Source: a virus. From it: 42,129 bases of DNA. The notes under the pieces are model-generated. The model saw nothing but the letters and a program-made list of their open reading frames with translations. It had not been told where the DNA came from and ran no database searches. The stretch is from the UHGV virus genome UHGV-0179013. The stretch is one strand, 5' to 3'. Shown one piece after another: positions 1-38,747 of this stretch; positions within the stretch are counted from its first letter, which is position 1, and the number at the start of each line of letters is the position of its first letter. Made by a program: the position numbers and the translations under genes.

Positions 1-333
1 TCAAAACTGCGCCAATGCCGCCTCAAGAGATATCGCAGCATCAGTGCTGTTGATAAAGTGCGTCACCCGCCTCATAACCTCAGCCTCTTCAGCTGCATCA
101 CCTTCGATCGCTTCGCCGTCATCCGTGATTAACGCTTTCCCCCTAAGCTTCGCAAACTGCGTCCGACCTCCGGACAGAATCAACAGCGCATCACCCTGCT
201 GTGGGCGCGTGACCGGGACGATGATCGCATAACCCGCCGACGTCTCGAGGATGCGACTGTCGGGAGTCATGCAGACACTGGCTGGCGTAACCCGCTGCTC
301 TATATAGTCGGTAGATGGTGAAGGAAAGCCCAT
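1..333 (-). CDS. Hypothetical small protein (110 aa from ATG at 333; stop codon at 1-3); N-terminus MGFPSPSTDYIEQRV resembles the N-terminal arm of UmuD'/MucA-family proteins but no Ser/Lys peptidase motif is visible
   Basis: ATG at 333 preceded by AGAGGG Shine-Dalgarno; divergent from DinI-like gene with a LexA-box-like palindrome in the shared 78-bp intergenic region. The longer ORF-track start at 582 overlaps the dinI-like gene and is not favoured. Confidence 0.4.
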   Translation of the reverse strand: MGFPSPSTDYIEQRVTPASVCMTPDSRILETSAGYAIIVPVTRPQQGDALLILSGGRTQFAKLRGKALITDDGEAIEGDAAEEAEVMRRVTHFINSTDAAISLEAALAQF

Positions 334-376
334 GTTTACGCCCTCTCTTGAATGCTGGATAAAAACACAGTATAAA

Positions 377-396
377 TACTGTATATGCATCCAGTA
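377..396. promoter_or_regulatory. Candidate LexA (SOS) box TACTGTATATGCATCCAGTA
   Basis: Matches the CTGT-N8-ACAG LexA consensus (TACTGTATATATATACAGTA) at 17 of 20 positions with the CTG...CAG core intact; lies 16 bp upstream of the DinI-like start and 44 bp upstream of the divergent ORF. Confidence 0.5.
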
Positions 397-411
397 AAGA
401 GGAAATGAGCA

Positions 412-654
412 ATGTTCGTGGAACTCGTTTATGACAAAAGGAATTTTGATGGGCTGCCTGGTGCAAAAGATATCATTCTGGGCGAATTGACTAAGAGGGT
501 TCACCGGGTCTTCCCTGATGCTGATGTCCGGGTGAAACCGATGATGACGTTGCCGGCGATCAATACTGACGCCAGCAAGCATGAGAAGGAGCAGATTAGC
601 CGTGTGGTTCAGGAAATGTTTGAAGAAGCAGAGTTCTGGTTAGTGAGTGAGTAA
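412..654 (+). CDS. DinI-family DNA-damage-inducible protein homologue (80 aa)
   Basis: Length and sequence pattern (GELTKRVHRVFPD ... KEQISRVVQEMFEEAEFWLVSE) parallel E. coli DinI (GELSRRIQYAFPD ... QRISEILQETWESADDWFVSE); AGAGGA RBS; LexA-like box upstream. Confidence 0.75.
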   Translation: MFVELVYDKRNFDGLPGAKDIILGELTKRVHRVFPDADVRVKPMMTLPAINTDASKHEKEQISRVVQEMFEEAEFWLVSE

Positions 655-2959: not shown

Positions 2960-4098
2960 ACAAAATTCACCCCGCCAAGCACCGGAATTTCGCCAACAGC
3001 AAAGGTGATATTGGCCATCGGAGAGTTAAGGATATAGCCCGTCGTGCCACTAACACCGCCGATACTCCCGTTAATATCAGAGAGGTAAACTTTCCCGGAA
3101 CCATCAGGGTTAGCCTCATCAAAAAACAGCGCCGTCAGCGCGTCTTTTATACCCTGAACTGTGGTGCTGTCGGCATTTTTGATACCAGAGATTTCAATAT
3201 TGATGACTTTCTTGATCGGGGAACATACGAAAACAATGGCAGTGTCTGTCTGCTGCGGATAGATGTGGTCGGCGACAGCGAGCTGGTCTCCGGTGGCTTT
3301 AACAGCCCCCCAGTCCTCAAGTTGGGATATTCCATCGGTACCGACCGGAAACCCACCATTGTCATTCCGATCACACATGATATACACGCCAACGGTCCCG
3401 GCCCCGTTCAGACGCCGCTTTACCCACGCGCGGGTGACGCCCGAAACCTCAAGCGCCCATTTTTTATAATCGGCGTCGCTTCCACCCTGAGGCGGATTCT
3501 GCCATGCCAGCAAGCCACGACTGCGAAAGTCCTCTTCCGTTTCAATATCGGCTCCGCCGGTCGCAGCGGACAGTAACGTTACCTGTGGATCCACGCCAGC
3601 AATATTCGCGTCCAGGGTCATTATGGTCCCGGCATCAGCGTTACCGCGCGCGCCTCCACCCGTTACATCACTGGTAATATCCGGCAGGATGGCCGTCACC
3701 GCGACGATACCAAATCCATCTGCCTGAATTTTAAGATCTGCATCCGTCCGGTACTGGTATCCGTCCCCGCGGTTAATGATCGAGCCAACAGGGATAATAC
3801 TGTCAACACTGCCACTAGCCTGTACCGCAGGCGACTTCGCCGCTGCAGCTGGTTTTCTGAATACCTGCTTAAGGGCCATCCACCCGGCGAGATACTCATC
3901 GGTAGAGGTAAACGGGTTTGTCTGCAGGGCAATATAGTCAAGGTAGGCGTAATGCAGATGCCCCATCCCCGCATCCATGTCAGCCAGTACCTTCAGGTTC
4001 GCGAAGCGCAGGAGCGCACCAACATCCTCAAGCTCCGCCTGCATAAATTTCCGGTTTCCGTCGCGGAGTTCGCTCAGCGTCGGTCGTTTAAACGGCAT
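2956..4098 (-). CDS. Baseplate J-like protein (Mu gp47-like)
   Basis: About 380 aa from the ATG at 4098 (ORF-track start at 4236 overlaps the upstream gene); synteny W-J in a Mu/P2-type baseplate cluster; stop/start overlap with neighbours. Confidence 0.55.
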   Translation of the reverse strand: MPFKRPTLSELRDGNRKFMQAELEDVGALLRFANLKVLADMDAGMGHLHYAYLDYIALQTNPFTSTDEYLAGWMALKQVFRKPAAAAKSPAVQASGSVDSIIPVGSIINRGDGYQYRTDADLKIQADGFGIVAVTAILPDITSDVTGGGARGNADAGTIMTLDANIAGVDPQVTLLSAATGGADIETEEDFRSRGLLAWQNPPQGGSDADYKKWALEVSGVTRAWVKRRLNGAGTVGVYIMCDRNDNGGFPVGTDGISQLEDWGAVKATGDQLAVADHIYPQQTDTAIVFVCSPIKKVINIEISGIKNADSTTVQGIKDALTALFFDEANPDGSGKVYLSDINGSIGGVSGTTGYILNSPMANITFAVGEIPVLGGVNFV

Positions 4099-23060: not shown

Positions 23061-23585
23061 TCAGCCAATCAACAATTCTGGCTGCGTCACCTGCATGATG
23101 TGCTCATGCTCCAGTGCCAGGACGCGCTTTTCCTTCTTGCGTTCGTTCATTAAACGACTGCCGATCGTGCCTTTCAGCTTCGAGCGTGTTTCTTTGATGG
23201 CATAGCGGTGCTGCATTTCTTCGCCCATCGCCATGCGTCGGCTAAGTTGTTCGGACATCCAGTTGAATGCTGAGATATAACTCTCTTTGATTGCTGCAGC
23301 AGCTCTCCCAGTGAATCCCATCACAACCATGATCCAGCCATCTCTTGTCAGGCTGTACATCGGGCGAACCTTACCCTGCTCATCGATATAATCAGCCGAC
23401 GCAAAATTGCGTTGGCCAAACTCACTCGAGCAATCGGACTTAACCTGCTCGATTTTCCTGAGCACATCGCCGTGTCGCTTGCCGAAGTACTTGGCAACTT
23501 TTCTGGAAGTGGTGACGACCTCTCCGTTTTTGGCTTGCACCATTTCGCGGAAGTCGAAGGCCGGAATAACTGACGGATTATTCAT
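23061..23585 (-). CDS. Rha-family phage regulatory protein
   Basis: About 174 aa from ATG at 23585 (MNNPSVIPAFDFREMV ... TSRKVAKYFGKRHGDVLRKIEQ), pattern typical of the Rha N-terminal domain. Confidence 0.65.
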   Translation of the reverse strand: MNNPSVIPAFDFREMVQAKNGEVVTTSRKVAKYFGKRHGDVLRKIEQVKSDCSSEFGQRNFASADYIDEQGKVRPMYSLTRDGWIMVVMGFTGRAAAAIKESYISAFNWMSEQLSRRMAMGEEMQHRYAIKETRSKLKGTIGSRLMNERKKEKRVLALEHEHIMQVTQPELLIG

Positions 23586-23730
23586 AGCGTTTTTACCTTT
23601 TAGAAAGATGAGCCTGTTCGCACAGAAAAGCCGCCCCGAGATGGTCGCCACCATATACGGCAGTTCTCAGGCTCAGCTTTCTGAAAGACTCGGGATTGTC
23701 ATGCGCTGCGATGCGCGGTTTACTGCTGGT

Positions 23731-26092: not shown

Positions 26093-26127
26093 CAATGAAT
26101 AACATGCTAATAAGCAAGGATAAGGCG

Positions 26128-27213
26128 ATGGCGAGTGTAGACTTTAGCTTTGAAGGACTTCTAATAGAGAGAATTATCGCACACAGAGTTTTTCCTAAAA
26201 GTGCTGATAAAACCTTAACTCCCCCAAAAACCAGCAAATTTTTAATGGCATTCAAACAAGATGCATTAGATGCTTTTCAGGTGAGGATTACTGAGGCCTT
26301 AGCAAGTAAATCTCATGGAATTGAAATGTCTATTGGTGGTGTTGGTGATGATTGTTTTTTGAATCTGTCGGCTTCAACGTTTTCTAATGATACAGAGCAC
26401 TTCATCAAGGTTACAGAACGACTTGCAAGTAAACTTAGCGAGGCACAATACAACAGTTCTGCCCCTGGTGGGATATTGGCTGTATTGTCAGGGCGCGTAG
26501 GAAATGACTCACTTCCATTCCTTGCGGTAATAAAAGCTGAAACCCAAAATGGTTTTAGAACTATTGAAAATGATGAGCAGGTGACAATGGAGTTTATTGC
26601 TGAGCTTCTTTTAACTCCAGCGCAACGTTTTTATAAGATTGGTTTTATAGTCCAAACTATTGCTTTACCTCCTGATAGTGATGGTAATTATAGCAGCTCA
26701 TCTTATCGTGCATTTTTGTTTGACCATTTAATGACATCGACAGAAACAAAAAACGCCGCCGGATATTTCTACTCTCGATTTTTAGATATGGATATAAGCA
26801 AATCATCAAAAAAACTTACTCAAGATTTTTTTGAGAATACTAGGGACTTCATTAATACCGCACAAATAGAGGAAAGTAATAAACTTGCGCTGCATGAGGC
26901 TTTAAGAAGTGAAATGCGCTCAAGAAAGACCACATTAAGCACTGCGGATTTCGCAGAAACCAACCTCCCAGAAGAAATGCAGGGGGAGTATTTGGATTTT
27001 ATGAAGAACAAAAGCTTCCCTGCTGCCGCAGTAACTAAAGACAATGGTTATATTGAATCCAAATTAAAAATAAGAAGCAAGCTCGTATTCTCCAATGATG
27101 TATGGGTTTCCGTACCGCCAGATCAATTAAAAAATCTTGTGGAAATTATCCCGTCGGATGATAATGAATCAACGATTTTGAAAATAAAAGGGCGACTTAA
27201 AAGTCAACAATAA
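26128..27213 (+). CDS. Cassette gene A: 361-aa protein with YejK/NdpA (NA37 nucleoid-associated protein)-like features
   Basis: ATG at 26128 behind AAGGATAAGG RBS (ORF-track start 26095 lacks an RBS). Segments SAPGGILAVLSGRVGNDSLPFLAVIKAE and C-terminal ESTILKIKGR parallel E. coli YejK ([40 protein letters not shown]). Very AT-rich; stop overlaps gene B start (TAATG). Confidence 0.45.
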   Translation: MASVDFSFEGLLIERIIAHRVFPKSADKTLTPPKTSKFLMAFKQDALDAFQVRITEALASKSHGIEMSIGGVGDDCFLNLSASTFSNDTEHFIKVTERLASKLSEAQYNSSAPGGILAVLSGRVGNDSLPFLAVIKAETQNGFRTIENDEQVTMEFIAELLLTPAQRFYKIGFIVQTIALPPDSDGNYSSSSYRAFLFDHLMTSTETKNAAGYFYSRFLDMDISKSSKKLTQDFFENTRDFINTAQIEESNKLALHEALRSEMRSRKTTLSTADFAETNLPEEMQGEYLDFMKNKSFPAAAVTKDNGYIESKLKIRSKLVFSNDVWVSVPPDQLKNLVEIIPSDDNESTILKIKGRLKSQQ

Positions 27214-28205
27214 TGGATATCAATGAGTTCCGTGAGTTTTTACAGGCAAACCAGGATGCTTACGCAGCTTGGGGGCAGTTTGTGTCTGAAGAAATTTACA
27301 GTACTCTTTGTAGCTCTCTAGGGGATGACAAAGCCAAGCTCTTTCTAAAGATCCACTCAGAACCAAGACTAAAAAGTATAGCCTCGGCATTAGGAAAGGT
27401 CAGCCGTAAAGGATATGACAATCCAGTAGTGCAAATGACTGATTTGATTGGTGTACGCTTTGTAGTTCTACTCTCTGTTGAAATCAGAGCTATCAGTGAA
27501 ATAATTGAAAACTGTGATAAATGGGATGCGACTGTTTCTAAAGACTATTTATCAGAGATTGATGTTAACCCCAAAATTTTTGACTATCAATCGCGGCATT
27601 ATGAGGTAAGGCCTAAAGCTCAATTCGATTACTGTGGACAAAGCATAACGCCTGAAATGTGCTGCGAAGTTCAAGTTAGAACATTGCTTCAGCATGCCTA
27701 TGCTGAATTAGTCCATGATAGCGTCTACAAGCCTTCCGGTGATGTACCAAAATCTGCTGAAAGGCAAATAGCGCGTAGCATGGCCTTAATGGAAACAACG
27801 GATGATCTTTTTTGCAAAACAATGGAAATCTTGGCTGACAATAGCAAAGAGAGAAATGAGCTTTTAGAATTTCTTTCAGGATATTACGCAGAAAAAATAG
27901 GGAGGCAGTATATTGATGAAGATTTGCATGTTAACTTCTCCGTCATTGACACCTTTAAAGACCACATTGACGACAACTTACCAAATAAAATACACACACT
28001 TCTCAGTGAGAAAAAATACATCTCTGCACGGATAATTAATAGAGTTGAATACAATCCTCTATTCACTCAACCATGTATATTATTTGTGTACTGGTTAGCA
28101 AGCCAGATAGACTCAGGGGAAATGCTTTCAACATGGCCCCTGCCGGGCAATATTAGTGGGCTGGAGATGGTGCTAAGTGATTTAGGGAAAAGTATTTCTC
28201 GTTAG
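27213..28205 (+). CDS. Cassette gene B: RelA/SpoT-type nucleotide pyrophosphokinase (synthetase-fold) domain protein with about 150-aa C-terminal extension of unknown function; candidate toxSAS-like effector
   Basis: Synthetase motifs in order: RLKSIASALGKVSRK, DLIGVRFVV, DYQSRHYEV, EVQVRTLLQHAYAELVHDSVYK; compare RelQ RVKSPESIIEKLERK, DIAGLRVV, GYRSYHLVV, EIQIRTLAMNFWATIEHSLNYK. Translationally coupled to gene A. Confidence 0.7.
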   Translation: MDINEFREFLQANQDAYAAWGQFVSEEIYSTLCSSLGDDKAKLFLKIHSEPRLKSIASALGKVSRKGYDNPVVQMTDLIGVRFVVLLSVEIRAISEIIENCDKWDATVSKDYLSEIDVNPKIFDYQSRHYEVRPKAQFDYCGQSITPEMCCEVQVRTLLQHAYAELVHDSVYKPSGDVPKSAERQIARSMALMETTDDLFCKTMEILADNSKERNELLEFLSGYYAEKIGRQYIDEDLHVNFSVIDTFKDHIDDNLPNKIHTLLSEKKYISARIINRVEYNPLFTQPCILFVYWLASQIDSGEMLSTWPLPGNISGLEMVLSDLGKSISR

Positions 28206-28244: not shown

Positions 28245-28673
28245 TTAAAAGTCTAACATGGCAATGCATCCATCTACGAACCCCATTGCCGTCTGTAGTT
28301 CCTTTCTTATAGTCCCATCAGAGCACTTTCGCTTTTTAGCAATGGATCTCAACGAGATACCGATAACGAAGTGGGCAACAATCAATTCATATTCATCAGG
28401 CTTATATTTACGTAAGCGAGCCACACATCCATCAATCATGATTCCCTCATCGTCATCACACTGAAGTCGTGATTTCTTACCATGAGGTAAAAGTCCCTTG
28501 AATCCAGCTGCAATGGGTTGCCAGTCGACACCACTACTATCGGCTGCCGCCCATGCTCCCCATAAATCCATCACTTCATACATATCACGCATTGCAATTT
28601 CTCTTTCGTCTTCTCTGCTTAAAGGGTTAGCTCCCTGAGGGCTGAAATGTTTGAGTGATGCTTCCAGTTTCAT
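28245..28673 (-). CDS. Q-like late-gene antitermination protein
   Basis: About 142 aa from ATG at 28673; C-terminal region LIVAHFVIGISLRSIAKKRKCSDGTIRKELQTAMGFVDGCIAM resembles the region-4-like HTH of phage 82/21-type Q proteins; last gene of the early operon after replication genes. Confidence 0.55.
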   Translation of the reverse strand: MKLEASLKHFSPQGANPLSREDEREIAMRDMYEVMDLWGAWAAADSSGVDWQPIAAGFKGLLPHGKKSRLQCDDDEGIMIDGCVARLRKYKPDEYELIVAHFVIGISLRSIAKKRKCSDGTIRKELQTAMGFVDGCIAMLDF

Positions 28674-29005
28674 TGGATAGTGCCTCCCTTCTCGGCAGTG
28701 CCAAACCAGCCAGGATGCGCCCACTGAATATCGGTAACTTTATGGCCTTTCCCCCATAGCGATATCGAACGCATTGCAACGTAGTGCATAAATATTTTTT
28801 CCCGCTCAAGCCATTCATCCTCAGGCTTATCTTCAAGAAACTCATCGATTGCATCAGCAATAAGGCCAAAGCATTCGGGATAGTCGCTATGACTGATATC
28901 TATGTCTCGTACAGCATCCTGGAGTTCCATGAAGCGCTTTTGGGTGAATAAATAAGACATTTCGTGAATTAGACGATCCATTATTGGTTCCTTAAGCTTT
29001 TGCAT
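28670..29005 (-). CDS. Hypothetical phage protein (nin-region position)
   Basis: About 111 aa from ATG at 29005 (longer ORF-track start would overlap the DnaB-like gene). Confidence 0.35.
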   Translation of the reverse strand: MQKLKEPIMDRLIHEMSYLFTQKRFMELQDAVRDIDISHSDYPECFGLIADAIDEFLEDKPEDEWLEREKIFMHYVAMRSISLWGKGHKVTDIQWAHPGWFGTAEKGGTIQ

Positions 29006-32229: not shown

Positions 32230-32534
32230 TGCCCCCCCTCCCACTGCCATGACGGCATCAAAACAAAGCCCATAGGATCGCTGACCTTTGCACACCTAAC
32301 ATCACCTGGCTGCACAATCTCCATCCCGATGTATCCGGCACAAAGTAAGAGCTCAAGAGCAATGAAAAGCTCATCAACGGAGCAACAGCAGAATTCTGCG
32401 AATTCCGATACACTGAGATAACGAAAACCTGAACAATCGCAGCTACCGGACATCCAGATGCGGCACATAATCAGGCGATGAAGGGCGCTTTCAAAAGGAT
32501 GTTTATTGATAAAATCAGGGATAGACTTACTCAT
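32226..32534 (-). CDS. Hypothetical Cys-rich small protein
   Basis: 102 aa, stop/start overlapped on both sides; multiple Cys (CDCSGF, CCCS); function unknown. Confidence 0.35.
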   Translation of the reverse strand: MSKSIPDFINKHPFESALHRLIMCRIWMSGSCDCSGFRYLSVSEFAEFCCCSVDELFIALELLLCAGYIGMEIVQPGDVRCAKVSDPMGFVLMPSWQWEGGQ

Positions 32535-33379
32535 GCGGCACCTGCCAACTCTTTGTCGTGGGTAAATTCACCTTTCCAGCGCTTCTTCATCGGAAGATGC
32601 CCCTTGAGATAGTGTCGGTAAATCCATACCGCGCCTTTGCGCAGAAGGATCGGTTTGAATGTGTCACGCATCTCGCCGTCGTCCTGTTCTACTTGACCAG
32701 AACGCTCACTGAGGTAGAGATCGCGTGCATAGTGATGAACCCGCCAGCGCGGATATTTAGCCTTTGGCTGGTCGTCGTAGAGCCAGTTATGTTCGAACAA
32801 AAACGCATTAACCTGCTGGACGTTGACGCCGTTCAGCTGCTTACAGAACTGGCAAGGAGACATACCCGGCTGAAAGAGGTTTTCCAGGTGCTCGATGTAC
32901 TTTGCCTGTCGCTCGACGTATCCAAGCGCACGCCGGGCAGCTTCACGTTCGTCAGCCCATGCACGCGCAGCAGCCACCTCATCTGAGAAATCAGGCAGAT
33001 CTGAGTTAACCGCCACCAGCTTACCTGTGCGAAAGTCGAGGAAGGTCTGATTCACCTGCAAGCGGAATACTGGTGAGATCCACCCGGCATACTCAATGGC
33101 CAGCAGTTCGTGAGCGAAAGTGCCGCCATTCCTGCCTTCGTCTGAAACTATGCAAATCTGCACAGTTTCTTTTTCCAGCTCAGCGATTAGCGATTTAGCA
33201 GTTTGAGTGCGCAACCACTGGGCAGGGGCTTTGTTAGCACCAAGCCCACTCGCCTTGTGCAAAGCATTCAGGTTAAAACGCCCCTCAGCATCGGTAGTGA
33301 TTTCCACACCTGCAATAACAGGTAGGCTTTCAGCACCATTACTTGAATTATTCAGATGTTTATTGATATTATTTTTCAC
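32531..33379 (-). CDS. KilA-N domain protein with C-terminal ANT-like antirepressor domain
   Basis: 282 aa; N-terminal VIAGVEITTDAEGRFNLNALHKASG pattern of KilA-N domains; C-terminal region typical of phage antirepressor C-domains. Confidence 0.6.
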   Translation of the reverse strand: MKNNINKHLNNSSNGAESLPVIAGVEITTDAEGRFNLNALHKASGLGANKAPAQWLRTQTAKSLIAELEKETVQICIVSDEGRNGGTFAHELLAIEYAGWISPVFRLQVNQTFLDFRTGKLVAVNSDLPDFSDEVAAARAWADEREAARRALGYVERQAKYIEHLENLFQPGMSPCQFCKQLNGVNVQQVNAFLFEHNWLYDDQPKAKYPRWRVHHYARDLYLSERSGQVEQDDGEMRDTFKPILLRKGAVWIYRHYLKGHLPMKKRWKGEFTHDKELAGAA

Positions 33380-34520: not shown

Positions 34521-34976
34521 ATGGAAATCAAAGATATTCGATTAAATAACCTACAATCAGTAATTCAACGCAGCGGTTTAACGCAGACTGAATTGGCTTT
34601 GAAATGTGATATATCTCCTTCACTTATCAGCCAGATAATGACTAAACGCAGAAATATGGGGACCGCTTTTGCCCGGAAACTGGAAGGTAGGCTAAATCTT
34701 TCAGAAGGGTGGTTTGACATGCCTCACTCCCTGCTAGACTCGCCGTGGCATCTGGCAAAAATGGGAGAAAAAGACAATCTAGTGGCTGGTCAAGAACAAC
34801 CATTAAACAAAAGAGAGAGCCGTCTTGTAGAGCTATTCAGACAGATGCCTGAAAGCGAAAAAGACAGAATAATAAATGATTTAGCACAAAAAAAACGAGA
34901 TTTTGACAAACTTCTTGATGAACTAATGGCCGTGAAAGCTGCAAAGATGCCAATTGATAAAAATGAAAATGAATAA
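34521..34976 (+). CDS. CI-like prophage repressor, XRE-type HTH, without S24 peptidase (non-autocleavable) domain
   Basis: 151 aa; N-terminal HTH LTQTELALKCDISPSLISQIM; C-terminal part is charged/coiled-coil-like with no Ser-Lys peptidase motif; AAGGGG RBS. Confidence 0.65.
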   Translation: MEIKDIRLNNLQSVIQRSGLTQTELALKCDISPSLISQIMTKRRNMGTAFARKLEGRLNLSEGWFDMPHSLLDSPWHLAKMGEKDNLVAGQEQPLNKRESRLVELFRQMPESEKDRIINDLAQKKRDFDKLLDELMAVKAAKMPIDKNENE

Positions 34977-35024: not shown

Positions 35025-35085
35025 TTGTCAAAATTAACGCGCAGCGCTACATTCACCTCATCCAGTAAATTAGTGAGGTGAATGT
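35025..35085 (+). promoter_or_regulatory. Candidate promoter (TTGTCA-17 bp-TACATT) overlapped by a perfect 13-bp inverted repeat TACATTCACCTCA-N11-TGAGGTGAATGTA that covers the -10, RBS and start region of the downstream gene
   Basis: Inverted repeat arms at 35048-35060 and 35074-35086; right arm contains the GAGGTG Shine-Dalgarno. Confidence 0.45.
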
Positions 35086-35086
35086 A

Positions 35087-35533
35087 ATGTTCAGTACAAA
35101 TCACGACCCAAGATCAATTAATTCTCTTTTGCTTTGTGCTCAGGTAGCGTTATTGAATGGTTCTGTTTCAAATATCGATATTATCAATGTTTTAGACGTA
35201 GCGCAGGACCTAATTTCATTAACCGTCACCAGCTCGGCTGATAATGAAATAAGCGCCACTAATTCAAACAAAGAACAACCCACACCACGATACGCTCCTT
35301 ACACTGGCAGTATTAACATTGGTCAACGCATACGACTGGCACGCAAATACTCTGACCTAAAACAGAGCCATATAGCTAACGCTTTAGGGGTAACCATTCA
35401 AGCGGTGTCCTTATGGGAAAATGACTCAACAGTTCCCACCTGCGACAAAATTATCCCACTGGCTAACGTACTTAAATGCGATCCGATGTGGTTATTATCA
35501 GGTGCTCCTTTAGAAGTCACAGAGGAATCCTGA
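35087..35533 (+). CDS. Hypothetical protein with C-terminal XRE-type HTH domain (148 aa)
   Basis: ATG at 35087 behind GAGGTG (ORF-track start 35078 is GTG); HTH IGQRIRLARKYSDLKQSHIANALGVTIQAVSLWEN; AT-rich locus downstream of repressor (rex-like position). Confidence 0.5.
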   Translation: MFSTNHDPRSINSLLLCAQVALLNGSVSNIDIINVLDVAQDLISLTVTSSADNEISATNSNKEQPTPRYAPYTGSINIGQRIRLARKYSDLKQSHIANALGVTIQAVSLWENDSTVPTCDKIIPLANVLKCDPMWLLSGAPLEVTEES

Positions 35534-37711: not shown

Positions 37712-37996
37712 ATGATGATGAAAAACGAACTTATCACTGTGTGGTACATCGTCACATTCATGGTGACTGAAAATGCCGAGCGCCGCGAATATTCAATCTT
37801 TGTCGGCAGTAGTAGCGAAATGGAGGCGGTGGTTTCTGCGACTGCTGGGCTCTGTAAGGGACATGCTGAATTCAGCGAACCAGCATTCAAATCTATCCGC
37901 ATCGCGACCTATGGCGAGGCCGGATCGCTTGATGCAGAACTCGATGCAATTGCCGAACGGGAACAGAAAGAACTGGAGGAAGAAGACAATGAGTAA
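37712..37996 (+). CDS. Hypothetical early protein (94 aa) with acidic C-terminus
   Basis: ORF ending in an overlap with the Bro-N gene start. Confidence 0.4.
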   Translation: MMMKNELITVWYIVTFMVTENAERREYSIFVGSSSEMEAVVSATAGLCKGHAEFSEPAFKSIRIATYGEAGSLDAELDAIAEREQKELEEEDNE

Positions 37997-38747
37997 TCAA
38001 CTGATGAAATTTAACTCGTCGGATCTCGGCATTTCTCTGAGCGGGATGCTTTACCAGGGGAAACCAGTATTTGATGCCGTTGAGCTGGCAAAATCCCTGG
38101 GTTACGCAAATCCGGCTGACGCGCTAAAAACTCACTGCAAGTCATTGATTAAACTTAATTATAGCGAATCGCGAGAATTGGGTTTTAACGACAAAATTCG
38201 TGGCATGCAACTTGCGTCTGAATCTGATGCTTACCGGCTCATTCTCCGTAGCCAGCTTGCTTCCGCTGAACGTGTACAAGACTGGGTATGCGAAGATGTT
38301 CTGCCATCTATCCGCGAAACTGGCAGCTATAGATACCAACGCCCTAAATCTCAGGCGGAGATCATTGCCGAAATGGCTCTGCTGAATGTTGAGCAGGAGC
38401 GTCGCCTTAACCACGTTGAGGACAAGGTCGTTGAGGTTACCGAGCTAGTAGATCATATCGCTCGTGGTGCAACGCCTCCTGGTTGGGCTGGATACTCAGA
38501 ATTGAAAGCACTGTGCGGACTTTCAGATGCAAAGTGTCGCCAGTTAGTATCCGCTTATGACATCGACCATAAGCCTATCCCATTTATTGCGCCTGGAGGA
38601 ACCAAATCCACCATGACCATTGTGCGTGAGCAGCCATTTATGACGGCATTCACCAAAATGATGTTTGAAGCTGAACCTCGAGGCACCCGGTGGTATCACC
38701 CTAAGATGGGGCTGTTCCAGGTGATTGGATGGGATGGTCAACAGTGA
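37989..38747 (+). CDS. Bro-N domain protein (phage antirepressor-like)
   Basis: ATG at 37989 (ORF-track start 37773 is upstream in the same frame); N-terminus MKFNSSDLGISLSGMLYQGKPVFDAVELAKSLGYANPADALKTHCKS fits the Bro-N pattern. Confidence 0.55.
   Translation: MSNQLMKFNSSDLGISLSGMLYQGKPVFDAVELAKSLGYANPADALKTHCKSLIKLNYSESRELGFNDKIRGMQLASESDAYRLILRSQLASAERVQDWVCEDVLPSIRETGSYRYQRPKSQAEIIAEMALLNVEQERRLNHVEDKVVEVTELVDHIARGATPPGWAGYSELKALCGLSDAKCRQLVSAYDIDHKPIPFIAPGGTKSTMTIVREQPFMTAFTKMMFEAEPRGTRWYHPKMGLFQVIGWDGQQ

What the first reader, a model, noticed from the sequence alone, without database searches (positions are those of the whole stretch)
1..654. SOS-regulated divergent module: LexA-like box between a DinI homologue and a small ORF with a UmuD' N-arm-like motif
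A near-consensus LexA box (TACTGTATATGCATCCAGTA) lies in the 78-bp gap between a DinI-family gene and a divergent 110-aa ORF whose first 15 residues (GFPSPSTDYIEQRV) closely match the N-terminal arm of UmuD'/MucA (GFPSPAADYVEQRI), while the rest does not look like an S24 peptidase. Because the CI-like repressor lacks a cleavable domain, induction probably needs a LexA-controlled antirepressor or RecA modulator, and this small ORF is a candidate. Phage 186 has a comparable LexA-controlled tum operon that also carries a DinI homologue.
Basis: partly seen in the sequence, partly recalled or inferred. Interest (0 to 1): 0.55.

Follow-up and report, generated by a model that had tools for sequence, protein, structure and literature searches.

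The report
SOS-controlled DinI plus truncated UmuD′ cassette
The end of this prophage carries a DNA-damage-inducible gene pair, a DinI-type RecA binder and a ready-made copy of the mutagenesis factor UmuD′ that has lost its protease site; this is a variant of the known phage P1 humD module rather than a new prophage induction switch.

Summary
A near-consensus LexA box (377-396) and a second, weaker one (353-372) fill the 78-bp gap between a DinI-family gene (412-654, +) and a 110-aa ORF (333-1, -). These are the only LexA-like sites in the 42-kb window.

The small ORF is not just an "arm" motif. With a diverse alignment it is homologous over its whole length to UmuD′ and to phage P1 HumD. An 11-residue deletion removes the Ser60 loop and Ala replaces Lys97, so it is a pre-processed UmuD′ with no protease site. 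More than 650 homologues exist (PHROG 3469, "UmuD-like protein"), and they are under purifying selection.

The same LexA-controlled cassette occurs with full-size HumD (Nissle 1917, HK140, P1, N15) or the truncated form (mEp390, Flotzy, phiES15). It often includes a 79-aa upstream ORF and sits next to the att site.

The antirepressor idea is weakened but not excluded. The identical protein sits in an E. coli prophage with an S24-type CI, and 8 of 12 carriers examined have cleavable-type repressors.

My best reading is an SOS-induced UmuD′ surrogate or competitor acting on host UmuC/RecA*, partnered with DinI. This is a new variant of a known kind.

The parts
1..333 (-). 110-aa 'mini-HumD': a pre-processed UmuD' homologue lacking the Ser-Lys dyad. 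ATG at 333-331, stop at 3-1. A GAGAGGG Shine-Dalgarno sequence ends 7 nt upstream of the ATG.
334..411 (.). 78-bp divergent control region shared by both genes.
   Evidence: Sequence. It is nearly identical to the humD-dinI intergenic region of E. coli Nissle 1917.
377..396 (.). LexA box 2, near-consensus: TACTGTATATGCATCCAGTA.
   Evidence: 24.5 bits. It overlaps the -35 hexamer and spacer of the minus-strand promoter and lies just after the -10 hexamer of the dinI promoter.
353..372 (.). LexA box 1, weaker: TGCTGGATAAAAACACAGTA. It lies 24 bp centre-to-centre from box 2.
   Evidence: 22.1 bits. It is conserved in relatives L004, L005, L009, L012 and L013 and in MS 115-1, and degraded in L008 and L010.
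369..398 (-). Sigma-70-like promoter for the mini-HumD gene: TTTACT, 18-nt spacer, TATACT.
   Evidence: the only promoter-like hit in 1-800, 9 of 12 matches.
348..376 (+). Candidate promoter for dinI: TTGAAT, 17-nt spacer, TATAAA.
   Evidence: Read by eye. The scanner did not report it because the last base of the -10 hexamer is A.
412..654 (+). 80-aa DinI-family protein (RecA-filament binder).
   Evidence: Pfam PF06183, E 1.5e-18. PHROG 189 'RecA filament binding protein DinI', E 1e-20. An AAGAGGA Shine-Dalgarno sequence lies 8 nt before the ATG.
34521..34976 (+). Context only, not part of the cassette: 151-aa CI-like repressor with an HTH domain and no S24 domain, divergent from a 79-aa Cro-like HTH gene (34415-34176).
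   Evidence: Pfam HTH_3 only. PHROG 5736 'transcriptional regulator', E 8e-50.

Best explanation
This is a portable, LexA-repressed accessory cassette at the tail-fibre/att end of a lambdoid prophage.

- Uninduced state: in an undamaged lysogen, LexA occupies two adjacent boxes that cover both back-to-back promoters and keeps both genes off (inferred from sequence).
- After DNA damage, one promoter makes a DinI-family protein, which binds RecA filaments.
- The other promoter makes a 110-aa homologue of phage P1 HumD, that is, of UmuD'. It is translated already 'processed'. After removal of Met1 it starts at the Gly that RecA-mediated cleavage exposes in UmuD.
- This protein keeps the conserved N-terminal arm and the beta-fold. 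It has lost the Ser60 loop and Lys97, so it cannot be a peptidase and needs no activation.
- The most likely target is the host Pol V/RecA* axis. The arm docks on UmuC as the UmuD' arm does, so the protein acts as a surrogate for, or competitor of, UmuD'. DinI acts in parallel on RecA*.
- The likely effect is to change when and how much translesion synthesis is available to damaged host or phage DNA.

Shown here: the genes, the boxes, the full-length homology, the loss of the catalytic dyad, purifying selection, and interchangeability with full-size HumD at the same locus.

Inferred: LexA binding, UmuC binding, and the direction of the effect (activation or inhibition).
For: - Full-length homology to UmuD' and to P1 HumD, including the HumD-specific C-terminal DDCPVI-type tail in most family members.
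- The fold search returns only LexA/UmuD'/CI C-terminal domains at the top.
- The family starts invariably with M-G-F. Residues G2, F3, S5, P6, A7 and D9 are at least 90% conserved across 26-80% identical members.
- A published AlphaFold model of Pol V puts one UmuD' arm deep in UmuC. The same paper cites work showing that armless UmuD' dimerises but is dead for mutagenesis, and that the exact N-terminal residue matters (PMC11791011).
- The truncated form and full-size HumD are alternatives in one cassette. They share position (tail fibre to att), LexA box, divergent dinI and the 79-aa upstream ORF (HK140; mEp390 and Flotzy; orf79 with both forms).
- The Nissle 1917 prophage drives a 129-aa HumD, 72% identical to P1 HumD, from a control region almost identical to the window's.
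- P1 humD is annotated with a LexA site shared with the divergent gene lxr and 'functionally complements E. coli UmuD'' (title of McLenigan 1999 as cited).
- The family has more than 650 members of conserved length and 241 representatives at 50% clustering. dN/dS is 0.06-0.27.
- The cassette travels independently of repressor type.
Against: - No experiment on any member of the truncated family was found.
- In the Pol V model, the UmuC C-terminus binds the former active site of UmuD': UmuD' residues S36, T71, K73 and E69, which are UmuD S60, T95, K97 and E93. That site is deleted or remodelled here, so a normal UmuD'2C complex may not form.
- The family has its own strongly conserved motif, ITxDGEAIEG, which is absent from UmuD and HumD. 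This hints at a different partner.
- The window's copy has lost the conserved C-terminal DDxPV(I) tail.
- In the four carriers without an S24-type repressor, this cassette holds the only strong LexA site.
Confidence: 0.5

Rival explanations
1. LexA-controlled antirepressor. After SOS derepression the small protein binds the non-cleavable 151-aa CI, removes it from its operators and so induces the prophage. This would parallel 186 Tum, Gifsy GfoA/GftA and N15 AntC.
For: - The window's CI has an HTH domain and no S24 domain.
- The two boxes at 353-396 are the only LexA-like sites in the window.
- The same holds for phiES15 (HTH-only 134-aa CI; the record says it was UV-induced) and for BUCT711 and Kp4865-1 (HTH-only repressor; a LexA box sits directly upstream of the truncated gene alone).
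- LexA-controlled antirepressor operons that include DinI homologues are an established design (PMC3121763).
Against: - A 100% identical protein with the same promoter sits in an MS 115-1 prophage with an S24-type CI.
- 8 of 12 carriers have a cleavable-type CI.
- Fifteen IMG/VR contigs carry a copy at least 97% identical. None of them is among the 11 contigs found to carry a relative of the window's CI. That CI scan reaches only close relatives.
- A VR50 prophage with a related HTH-only CI has DinI but no HumD, truncated form or orf79.
- The gene is interchangeable with full-size HumD, whose tested function is UmuD'-like.
- No hit to antirepressor families in PHROGs or Pfam.
Confidence: 0.15
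2. RecA* pseudo-substrate or decoy. The uncleavable S24-fold protein docks in the groove of activated RecA filaments, as LexA, UmuD and CI do. Together with DinI it damps or times RecA co-protease activity, and so sets the threshold or duration of SOS and of induction of co-resident prophages.
For: - It has an S24/LexA-like fold without a catalytic dyad.
- It is paired with a RecA-filament binder under one operator.
- The cassette is found with any repressor type, as expected for a general SOS modulator.
- Solved RecA-UmuD and RecA-LexA complexes appear among the sequence and fold hits (8gmt, 8s7g).
Against: - This reading does not explain the very strong conservation of the mature UmuD' N-terminus (M-G-F-P-S-P-A-x-D-Y). 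In the Pol V model that segment contacts UmuC, not RecA.
- Nothing here tests RecA binding.
Confidence: 0.15
3. Decaying remnant of a humD/umuD gene with no function of its own.
For: - It has lost the catalytic loop and Lys.
- The window's copy has also lost the family's conserved C-terminal tail through a junction right after codons S-T-D-A.
- No Pfam hit.
Against: - More than 650 homologues of constant length (104-111 aa) occur across Escherichia, Citrobacter, Leclercia, Enterobacter, Klebsiella, Cronobacter and Erwinia.
- dN/dS is 0.06-0.27.
- It has its own Shine-Dalgarno sequence, promoter and conserved LexA box, or translational coupling to orf79.
- New invariant motifs have arisen in the family.
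Confidence: 0.05

Closest known systems
Phage P1 HumD with its divergent, LexA-regulated partner lxr (also N15 gene 26 and the HK140/HK639 'UmuD-like protein')
   Same: - Phage-encoded and translated without the 24-residue UmuD pro-segment, starting MGFPSPA.
- A LexA box sits in a divergent control region.
- In lambdoid phages and N15 it lies after the tail fibre gene, next to att.
- Most truncated-family members share the C-terminal DDCPVI-type tail.
- Full-length profile homology (98.7%, E 2e-16).
   Different: - HumD is 129 aa and keeps residues aligned with Ser60 and Lys97.
- The window protein is 110 aa, lacks the 11-residue Ser loop, has Ala at the Lys97 column, has shorter beta5-beta6 loops, and carries its own ITxDGEAIEG motif.
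- The window's allele has also lost the DDxPVI tail.
- The divergent partner here is DinI, not Lxr, which has no Pfam hit.
- HumD has been tested in mutagenesis assays. This family has not.
E. coli UmuD' (the RecA-processed form of UmuD, subunit of Pol V)
   Same: N-terminal arm (10 of 14 residues identical), S24-like beta fold, and LexA control.
   Different: - No pro-segment and no self-cleavage.
- No Ser-Lys dyad.
- No adjacent umuC.
- About 24% identity outside the arm.
impCAB-type operons of plasmids (ImpC, a DinI-family protein, with the UmuD homologue ImpA and the UmuC homologue ImpB). This rests on my own knowledge of the DinI family and was not checked here.
   Same: A DinI-like gene is paired with a UmuD-like gene under SOS control.
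   Different: The arrangement here is divergent rather than co-directional. There is no polymerase gene. The UmuD-like partner is pre-processed and catalytically dead.
LexA-controlled antirepressor loci: 186 tum (whose product is DinI-like in its second half), Gifsy dinI-gfoA/gftA-irsA, N15 antC
   Same: A prophage-borne LexA box controls a small gene next to a DinI homologue. The cognate repressors are non-cleavable (PMC3121763).
   Different: - The Gifsy loci lie downstream of the replication genes, and the antirepressor follows dinI in one operon.
- No sequence relationship was found. Neither the truncated family nor orf79 hits Gifsy phages by tblastn or PHROG/Pfam antirepressor families.
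- The cassette occurs mostly with cleavable repressors.

Membership tests
UmuD'/HumD-like proteins (LexA/S24 superfamily, UmuD branch) | Sequence homology across the whole UmuD' domain, not only the arm | tested here: met
   hhalign of A2 against UmuD: 97.9%, E 3.6e-13, 96 columns. Against P1 HumD: 98.7%, E 2e-16, 105 columns. hmmsearch against PDB hits UmuD at E 5.6e-10. Single-sequence and shallow-profile searches saw only the arm.
UmuD'/HumD-like proteins (LexA/S24 superfamily, UmuD branch) | S24/LexA C-terminal-domain beta fold | tested here: met
UmuD'/HumD-like proteins (LexA/S24 superfamily, UmuD branch) | Mature N-terminus at the Gly25-equivalent with the conserved GFPSPAxDY arm | tested here: met
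   The ORF starts MGFPSPSTDY. M1 is invariant, and G2, F3, S5, P6, A7 and D9 are at least 90% conserved in 35 diverse members. Removal of Met before Gly is inferred from the known specificity of methionine aminopeptidase.
UmuD'/HumD-like proteins (LexA/S24 superfamily, UmuD branch) | Supports UmuC-dependent mutagenesis and binds UmuC | not testable with these tools
   This needs genetics or biochemistry. No multimer modelling tool was available.
Active S24 peptidases (Pfam PF00717) | Ser-Lys catalytic dyad | tested here: not met
   An 11-residue deletion removes the Ser60 loop, and the Lys97 column holds Ala or Gly in the truncated family (alignment A3).
Active S24 peptidases (Pfam PF00717) | Scores above the Pfam gathering threshold | tested here: not met
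   No PF00717 hit even at E 1. The Nissle HumD-type protein does hit, at E 1.9e-8.
DinI family (ORF 412-654) | Match to the DinI profile over the whole domain | tested here: met
   PF06183, E 1.5e-18, 67 bits against a cutoff of 24.2, profile positions 3-63 of 63. PHROG 189, E 1e-20.
SOS (LexA) regulon member | Gammaproteobacterial LexA operator (CTG-N10-CAG palindrome) overlapping the promoter | tested here: met
   There are two boxes overlapping the promoter hexamers. Boxes are conserved upstream of the cassette in P1, N15, HK140, mEp390, Nissle, phiES15, the Klebsiella phages and most of 80 IMG/VR loci.
SOS (LexA) regulon member | LexA binding and damage-inducible transcription | not testable with these tools
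   This needs EMSA or footprinting and reporter fusions in lexA(Ind-) and lexA(Def) backgrounds.
LexA-controlled phage antirepressors (Tum, GfoA/GftA, AntC) | Consistent linkage to a non-cleavable cognate repressor | tested here: not met
   The identical protein occurs with an S24 CI in MS 115-1. An S24 CI is present in 8 of 12 carriers. A prophage with a related HTH-only CI lacks the gene.
LexA-controlled phage antirepressors (Tum, GfoA/GftA, AntC) | Sequence relationship to a known antirepressor | tested here: inconclusive
   No antirepressor family hit in PHROGs or Pfam. No Gifsy or 186 records among the tblastn hits. The Tum, GfoA and AntC sequences themselves were not available for direct comparison.
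LexA-controlled phage antirepressors (Tum, GfoA/GftA, AntC) | Binds and inactivates the repressor; required for induction | not testable with these tools
   This needs deletion and complementation experiments and binding assays.

The most novel reading that the evidence does not exclude
In phages whose repressor has no S24 domain (this window, phiES15, BUCT711/Kp4865-1), the catalytically dead UmuD'-fold protein, alone or with orf79, could be the device that couples SOS to the lytic switch. That would be an antirepressor, or RecA*-dependent co-factor, recruited from the same fold that cleavable repressors use. The same cassette would serve as a mere SOS modulator in phages with cleavable CIs.
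Probability: 0.12. Interest if true: 0.75.

Novelty: new variant of a known kind. Interest (0 to 1): 0.4.

Why it matters
Phage-borne, pre-activated UmuD' homologues have been known since P1 HumD, but it is still unclear why phages carry them. This window belongs to a large, uncharacterised sub-family (PHROG 3469, more than 650 proteins in Enterobacteriaceae).

- What it keeps and loses: the sub-family keeps the UmuD' arm and fold but has discarded the catalytic cleft. In a current Pol V model that cleft holds the UmuC C-terminus.
- A natural separation-of-function variant: testing whether it activates, blocks or ignores UmuC would show what the arm and the cleft each contribute to Pol V.
- Effect on the host: the result would also show whether prophages tune host mutagenesis and SOS timing during antibiotic or DNA-damage stress.
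- Annotation: a LexA box beside a small ORF in a prophage with a non-cleavable repressor is not enough to call an antirepressor.

Tried and rejected
- Pfam on the 110-aa ORF gave no significant hit.
- Megablast of 1-720 against the phage collection gave no match.
- A shallow alignment (A1, all members above 65% identical) gave hhalign matches to UmuD and HumD over the arm only and a poor AF2 model (pLDDT 55). Both were superseded by the diverse alignments A2 and A4.
- I looked for the 79-aa partner ORF in the window and found none.
- I looked for other LexA sites in the window. The next best scores 10.7 bits.
- tblastn of the window's CI against phages matched only the HTH half of unrelated CIs, so it could not be used for co-occurrence analysis.
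- I tried to relate contigs carrying the window-type CI to contigs carrying the window-type truncated gene in IMG/VR. There was no overlap between the two lists, but the lists are truncated and the CI scan reaches only close relatives, so this is weak evidence.
- E. coli complete genomes hold the window's immunity region at only about 76% identity.
- The paper describing HumD (PMC94175) is not held. Its claim is taken from its title as cited elsewhere and from the P1 record annotation.
- I considered the Ant/Bro-N/KilA-type ORFs at 37773-38747, 32531-33379 and 23061-23654 as alternative antirepressors. They have no LexA box and lie inside the early and late operons.
Full report
**1. What is in the sequence**

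Positions 1-654 hold two divergent genes separated by 78 bp.

- On the plus strand, 412-654 encodes an 80-aa protein that matches Pfam DinI over the whole profile (E 1.5e-18) and PHROG 189, 'RecA filament binding protein DinI'.
- On the minus strand, an ORF with ATG at 333-331 and stop at 3-1 encodes 110 aa beginning MGFPSPSTDYIEQRV. The mechanical ORF list extends it to an ATG at 582. Every homologue starts at MGF, and a GAGAGGG Shine-Dalgarno sequence precedes the 333 start.

**2. LexA operators**

- TACTGTATATGCATCCAGTA at 377-396 is the only site in 42 kb within 3 mismatches of the palindromic consensus, with none expected by chance.
- A CTG-N10-CAG scan shows a second box, TGCTGGATAAAAACACAGTA, at 353-372.
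- I built a rough weight matrix from E. coli LexA boxes that I recalled from the literature, so it is approximate. The two boxes score 24.5 and 22.1 bits, inside the range of the genuine boxes (12.6-26.3). The next best site in the window scores 10.7. One of 30 mononucleotide shuffles of the window gave any site of 22 bits or more.
- The matrix finds the LexA site annotated in the P1 record at its exact coordinates.
- The promoter scan reports one sigma-70-like promoter in 1-800: TTTACT, 18-nt spacer, TATACT on the minus strand (398-369), aimed at the small ORF.
- By eye, a TTGAAT, 17-nt spacer, TATAAA promoter (348-376) points at dinI.
- Each box overlaps elements of both promoters. Bound LexA would therefore shut both genes, although binding itself is inferred.

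**3. What the small protein is**

- Pfam gives nothing, but PHROGs places it in phrog_3469, 'UmuD-like protein' (E 1e-40).
- The large protein database holds 652 homologues of 104-111 aa, all unnamed, in Escherichia, Citrobacter, Leclercia, Enterobacter and relatives.
- A profile search of 1.84 billion representatives found 241 clusters.
- With only close homologues, profile comparison to UmuD or HumD stops after the arm. With a diverse alignment (A2, 26-80% identity) the match is full-length:
  - UmuD 25-137: 97.9%, E 3.6e-13.
  - PDB UmuD and UmuD' by HMM: E 5.6e-10 to 1.9e-8.
  - P1 HumD 1-129: 98.7%, E 2.1e-16.
- The multiple alignment (A3) shows how it differs. An 11-residue deletion removes the loop that carries Ser60. 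The Lys97 column holds Ala (Gly in others). Two shorter deletions trim later loops.
- Most family members end in a D-D-x-P-V/I tail that HumD shares and UmuD lacks.
- Pairwise dN/dS against 10 homologues is 0.06-0.27. For five more distant homologues dS was saturated.
- The ORF is therefore a conserved, selected, catalytically dead, pre-processed UmuD' of the phage HumD lineage. It is neither a bare motif nor a decaying fragment.

**4. The cassette and its relatives**

The gene sits at the very end of prophages. Most IMG/VR prophage contigs end at its stop codon. In free phage genomes it lies between the tail fibre genes and attP/int. The layouts seen are:

| Source | Layout |
|---|---|
| P1 | lxr, LexA box, humD (divergent) |
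| N15 | LexA box, gene 26 (HumD-like) |
| HK140 | dinI, LexA box, orf79, humD (129 aa); the annotated attP overlaps the 3' end of humD |
| mEp390, Flotzy | dinI, LexA box, orf79, truncated form |
| phiES15, the Erwinia phage vB_EhrS_59, and most of the 80 IMG/VR loci | (LexA box), orf79, truncated form, with overlapping stop/start codons; a box was confirmed for phiES15 and most of the IMG/VR loci, and the Erwinia locus was not scanned |
| BUCT711, Kp4865-1, L040, L077 | LexA box, truncated form alone |
| E. coli Nissle 1917 | dinI, LexA box(es), humD (129 aa, 72% identical to P1 HumD), with a control region almost identical to the window's |
| This window, E. coli MS 115-1 and about a dozen IMG/VR contigs | dinI, two LexA boxes, truncated form |

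- orf79 (PHROG 3893, function unknown, no Pfam hit) accompanies both HumD and the truncated form. It is absent from the window.
- The window's homology to Nissle starts at position 317, inside the arm-coding codons. The shared arm sequence therefore looks like a recombination joint between a HumD-type and a truncated-type body.
- The window's allele also departs from the family right after codons S-T-D-A, replacing the DDxPV(I) tail with AISLEAALAQF. In MS 115-1 and in locus L017 an AT-rich spacer and a hemerythrin-domain gene follow.

**5. Is it the antirepressor?**

Points in favour:
- The window's CI (34521-34976) is 151 aa with an HTH domain and no S24 domain.
- The cassette holds the only LexA sites in the window.
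- The same is true of phiES15, whose record says it was UV-induced and whose CI is 134 aa and HTH-only, and of BUCT711/Kp4865-1.

Points against:
- MS 115-1 carries a 100% identical protein and the same two-box region in a lambdoid prophage whose repressor is a 229-aa S24 peptidase.
- mEp390 and Flotzy have HTH+S24 CIs.
- In a 12-genome census using an S24 HMM and Pfam, 8 carriers have S24-type repressors.
- The VR50 prophage, with a related HTH-only CI, ends in a DinI-like gene with two weaker boxes and has no HumD, truncated form or orf79.
- The truncated form is interchangeable with HumD, whose documented activity is UmuD'-like (title cited).

The cassette therefore moves independently of the immunity module. 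An antirepressor role is not excluded for the S24-less phages, but it is not the best reading.

**6. Most likely mechanism**

- Established knowledge: UmuD' is the form that activates UmuC.
- A 2025 modelling study places one UmuD' arm deep in UmuC near the active site. It recalls that armless UmuD' dimerises but is inactive, and that changing the first residue alters mutagenesis (PMC11791011).
- The truncated family conserves exactly that arm and, after Met removal, exactly that N-terminus.
- I therefore favour a UmuC-directed UmuD' surrogate or competitor. It would be made immediately on SOS induction without RecA-mediated processing, together with a DinI that acts on RecA filaments.
- The direction of the effect is open. 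The same model has the UmuC C-terminus sitting in the UmuD' ex-active site (S60, T95, K97, E93), which is deleted or remodelled here. The family has also gained its own invariant ITxDGEAIEG motif.
- A RecA* decoy role is a reasonable rival.

**7. Novelty**

- The kind is known: P1 humD, and DinI-plus-UmuD-homologue pairings such as impCAB (the latter from my own knowledge).
- Databases and some annotators already call these proteins 'UmuD-like'.
- I found no study of the dyad-less sub-family.
- It is a new variant of a known kind, of moderate interest. There is a minority chance (about 0.12) that it couples SOS to induction in phages with non-cleavable repressors.

Noticed in passing
window 26095-28205 (+): This is a two-gene cassette on the opposite strand to the flanking Q-like (28245-28724, -) and lysis genes. 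It encodes an NA37/YejK-like nucleoid-associated protein (PF04245, E 2e-12) and a RelA/SpoT-domain protein (PF04607, E 1.6e-16). The latter has a weak hit to the PADLOC candidate PDC-S33 (E 5e-12). It may be a small-alarmone-synthetase toxin or a defence moron.
   Followed up: partly
window 1-36 (3' end of the ORF); L001 5700-6000; L017: The window's allele ends ...STDAAISLEAALAQF instead of the family's conserved ...DDxPV(I) tail. The DNA diverges right after the S-T-D-A codons. In E. coli MS 115-1 and L017 an AT-rich spacer and a hemerythrin-domain gene follow. In HK140 the annotated attP overlaps the 3' end of humD, so integration or moron insertion can rewrite this C-terminus.
   Followed up: partly
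related loci L003, L018-L083, L085, L089, L102, L112 (not in the window): In most relatives a conserved 79-aa ORF precedes the HumD or truncated gene, with overlapping stop and start codons (TAATG or TGATG). It begins MPRKSDINAAF and ends NRLWMLRNMGRVL, belongs to PHROG 3893 (function unknown) and has no Pfam hit. It was left unannotated in mEp390, where a minus-strand ORF was called instead. Some database proteins look like fusions of it with the truncated form (P0168, P0172).
   Followed up: partly
window 35078-35533 (+): A second 151-aa HTH protein (HTH_19/HTH_3 at residues 82-143; PHROG 4836 'CII-like regulator') lies directly downstream of the CI-like gene on the same strand.
   Followed up: no
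window 37773-38747 (+), 32531-33379 (-), 23061-23654 (-): Three ORFs carry Bro-N, KilA-N plus ANT (KilAC), or Rha-like domains, which PHROGs labels 'anti-repressor'. None has a LexA-like box nearby. They lie inside the early-left, early-right and late regions.
   Followed up: partly
protein P0140: This is a 141-aa database protein. It has a full UmuD-type pro-segment (IRPAELREIIALTLFSDSMQCGF) joined to a truncated-type body that lacks the Ser loop. It looks like a recombinant between a umuD-like gene and a truncated gene at the arm. If real, it could not cleave itself.
   Followed up: no
L111 (E. coli VR50) 3100-3440: A prophage with a related HTH-only CI ends in a different DinI-like gene preceded by two moderate LexA-like boxes (17.1 and 16.6 bits) and has no UmuD-like partner. 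LexA-controlled dinI genes at prophage ends appear to be a recurring unit in their own right.
   Followed up: partly
L089 (Flotzy) 36295; L104 7696; L105 6070: Strong LexA-like boxes (23-24 bits) lie inside the coding sequence of the S24-type CI genes of Flotzy and the Kp4871/Kp4882 Klebsiella phages.
   Followed up: no
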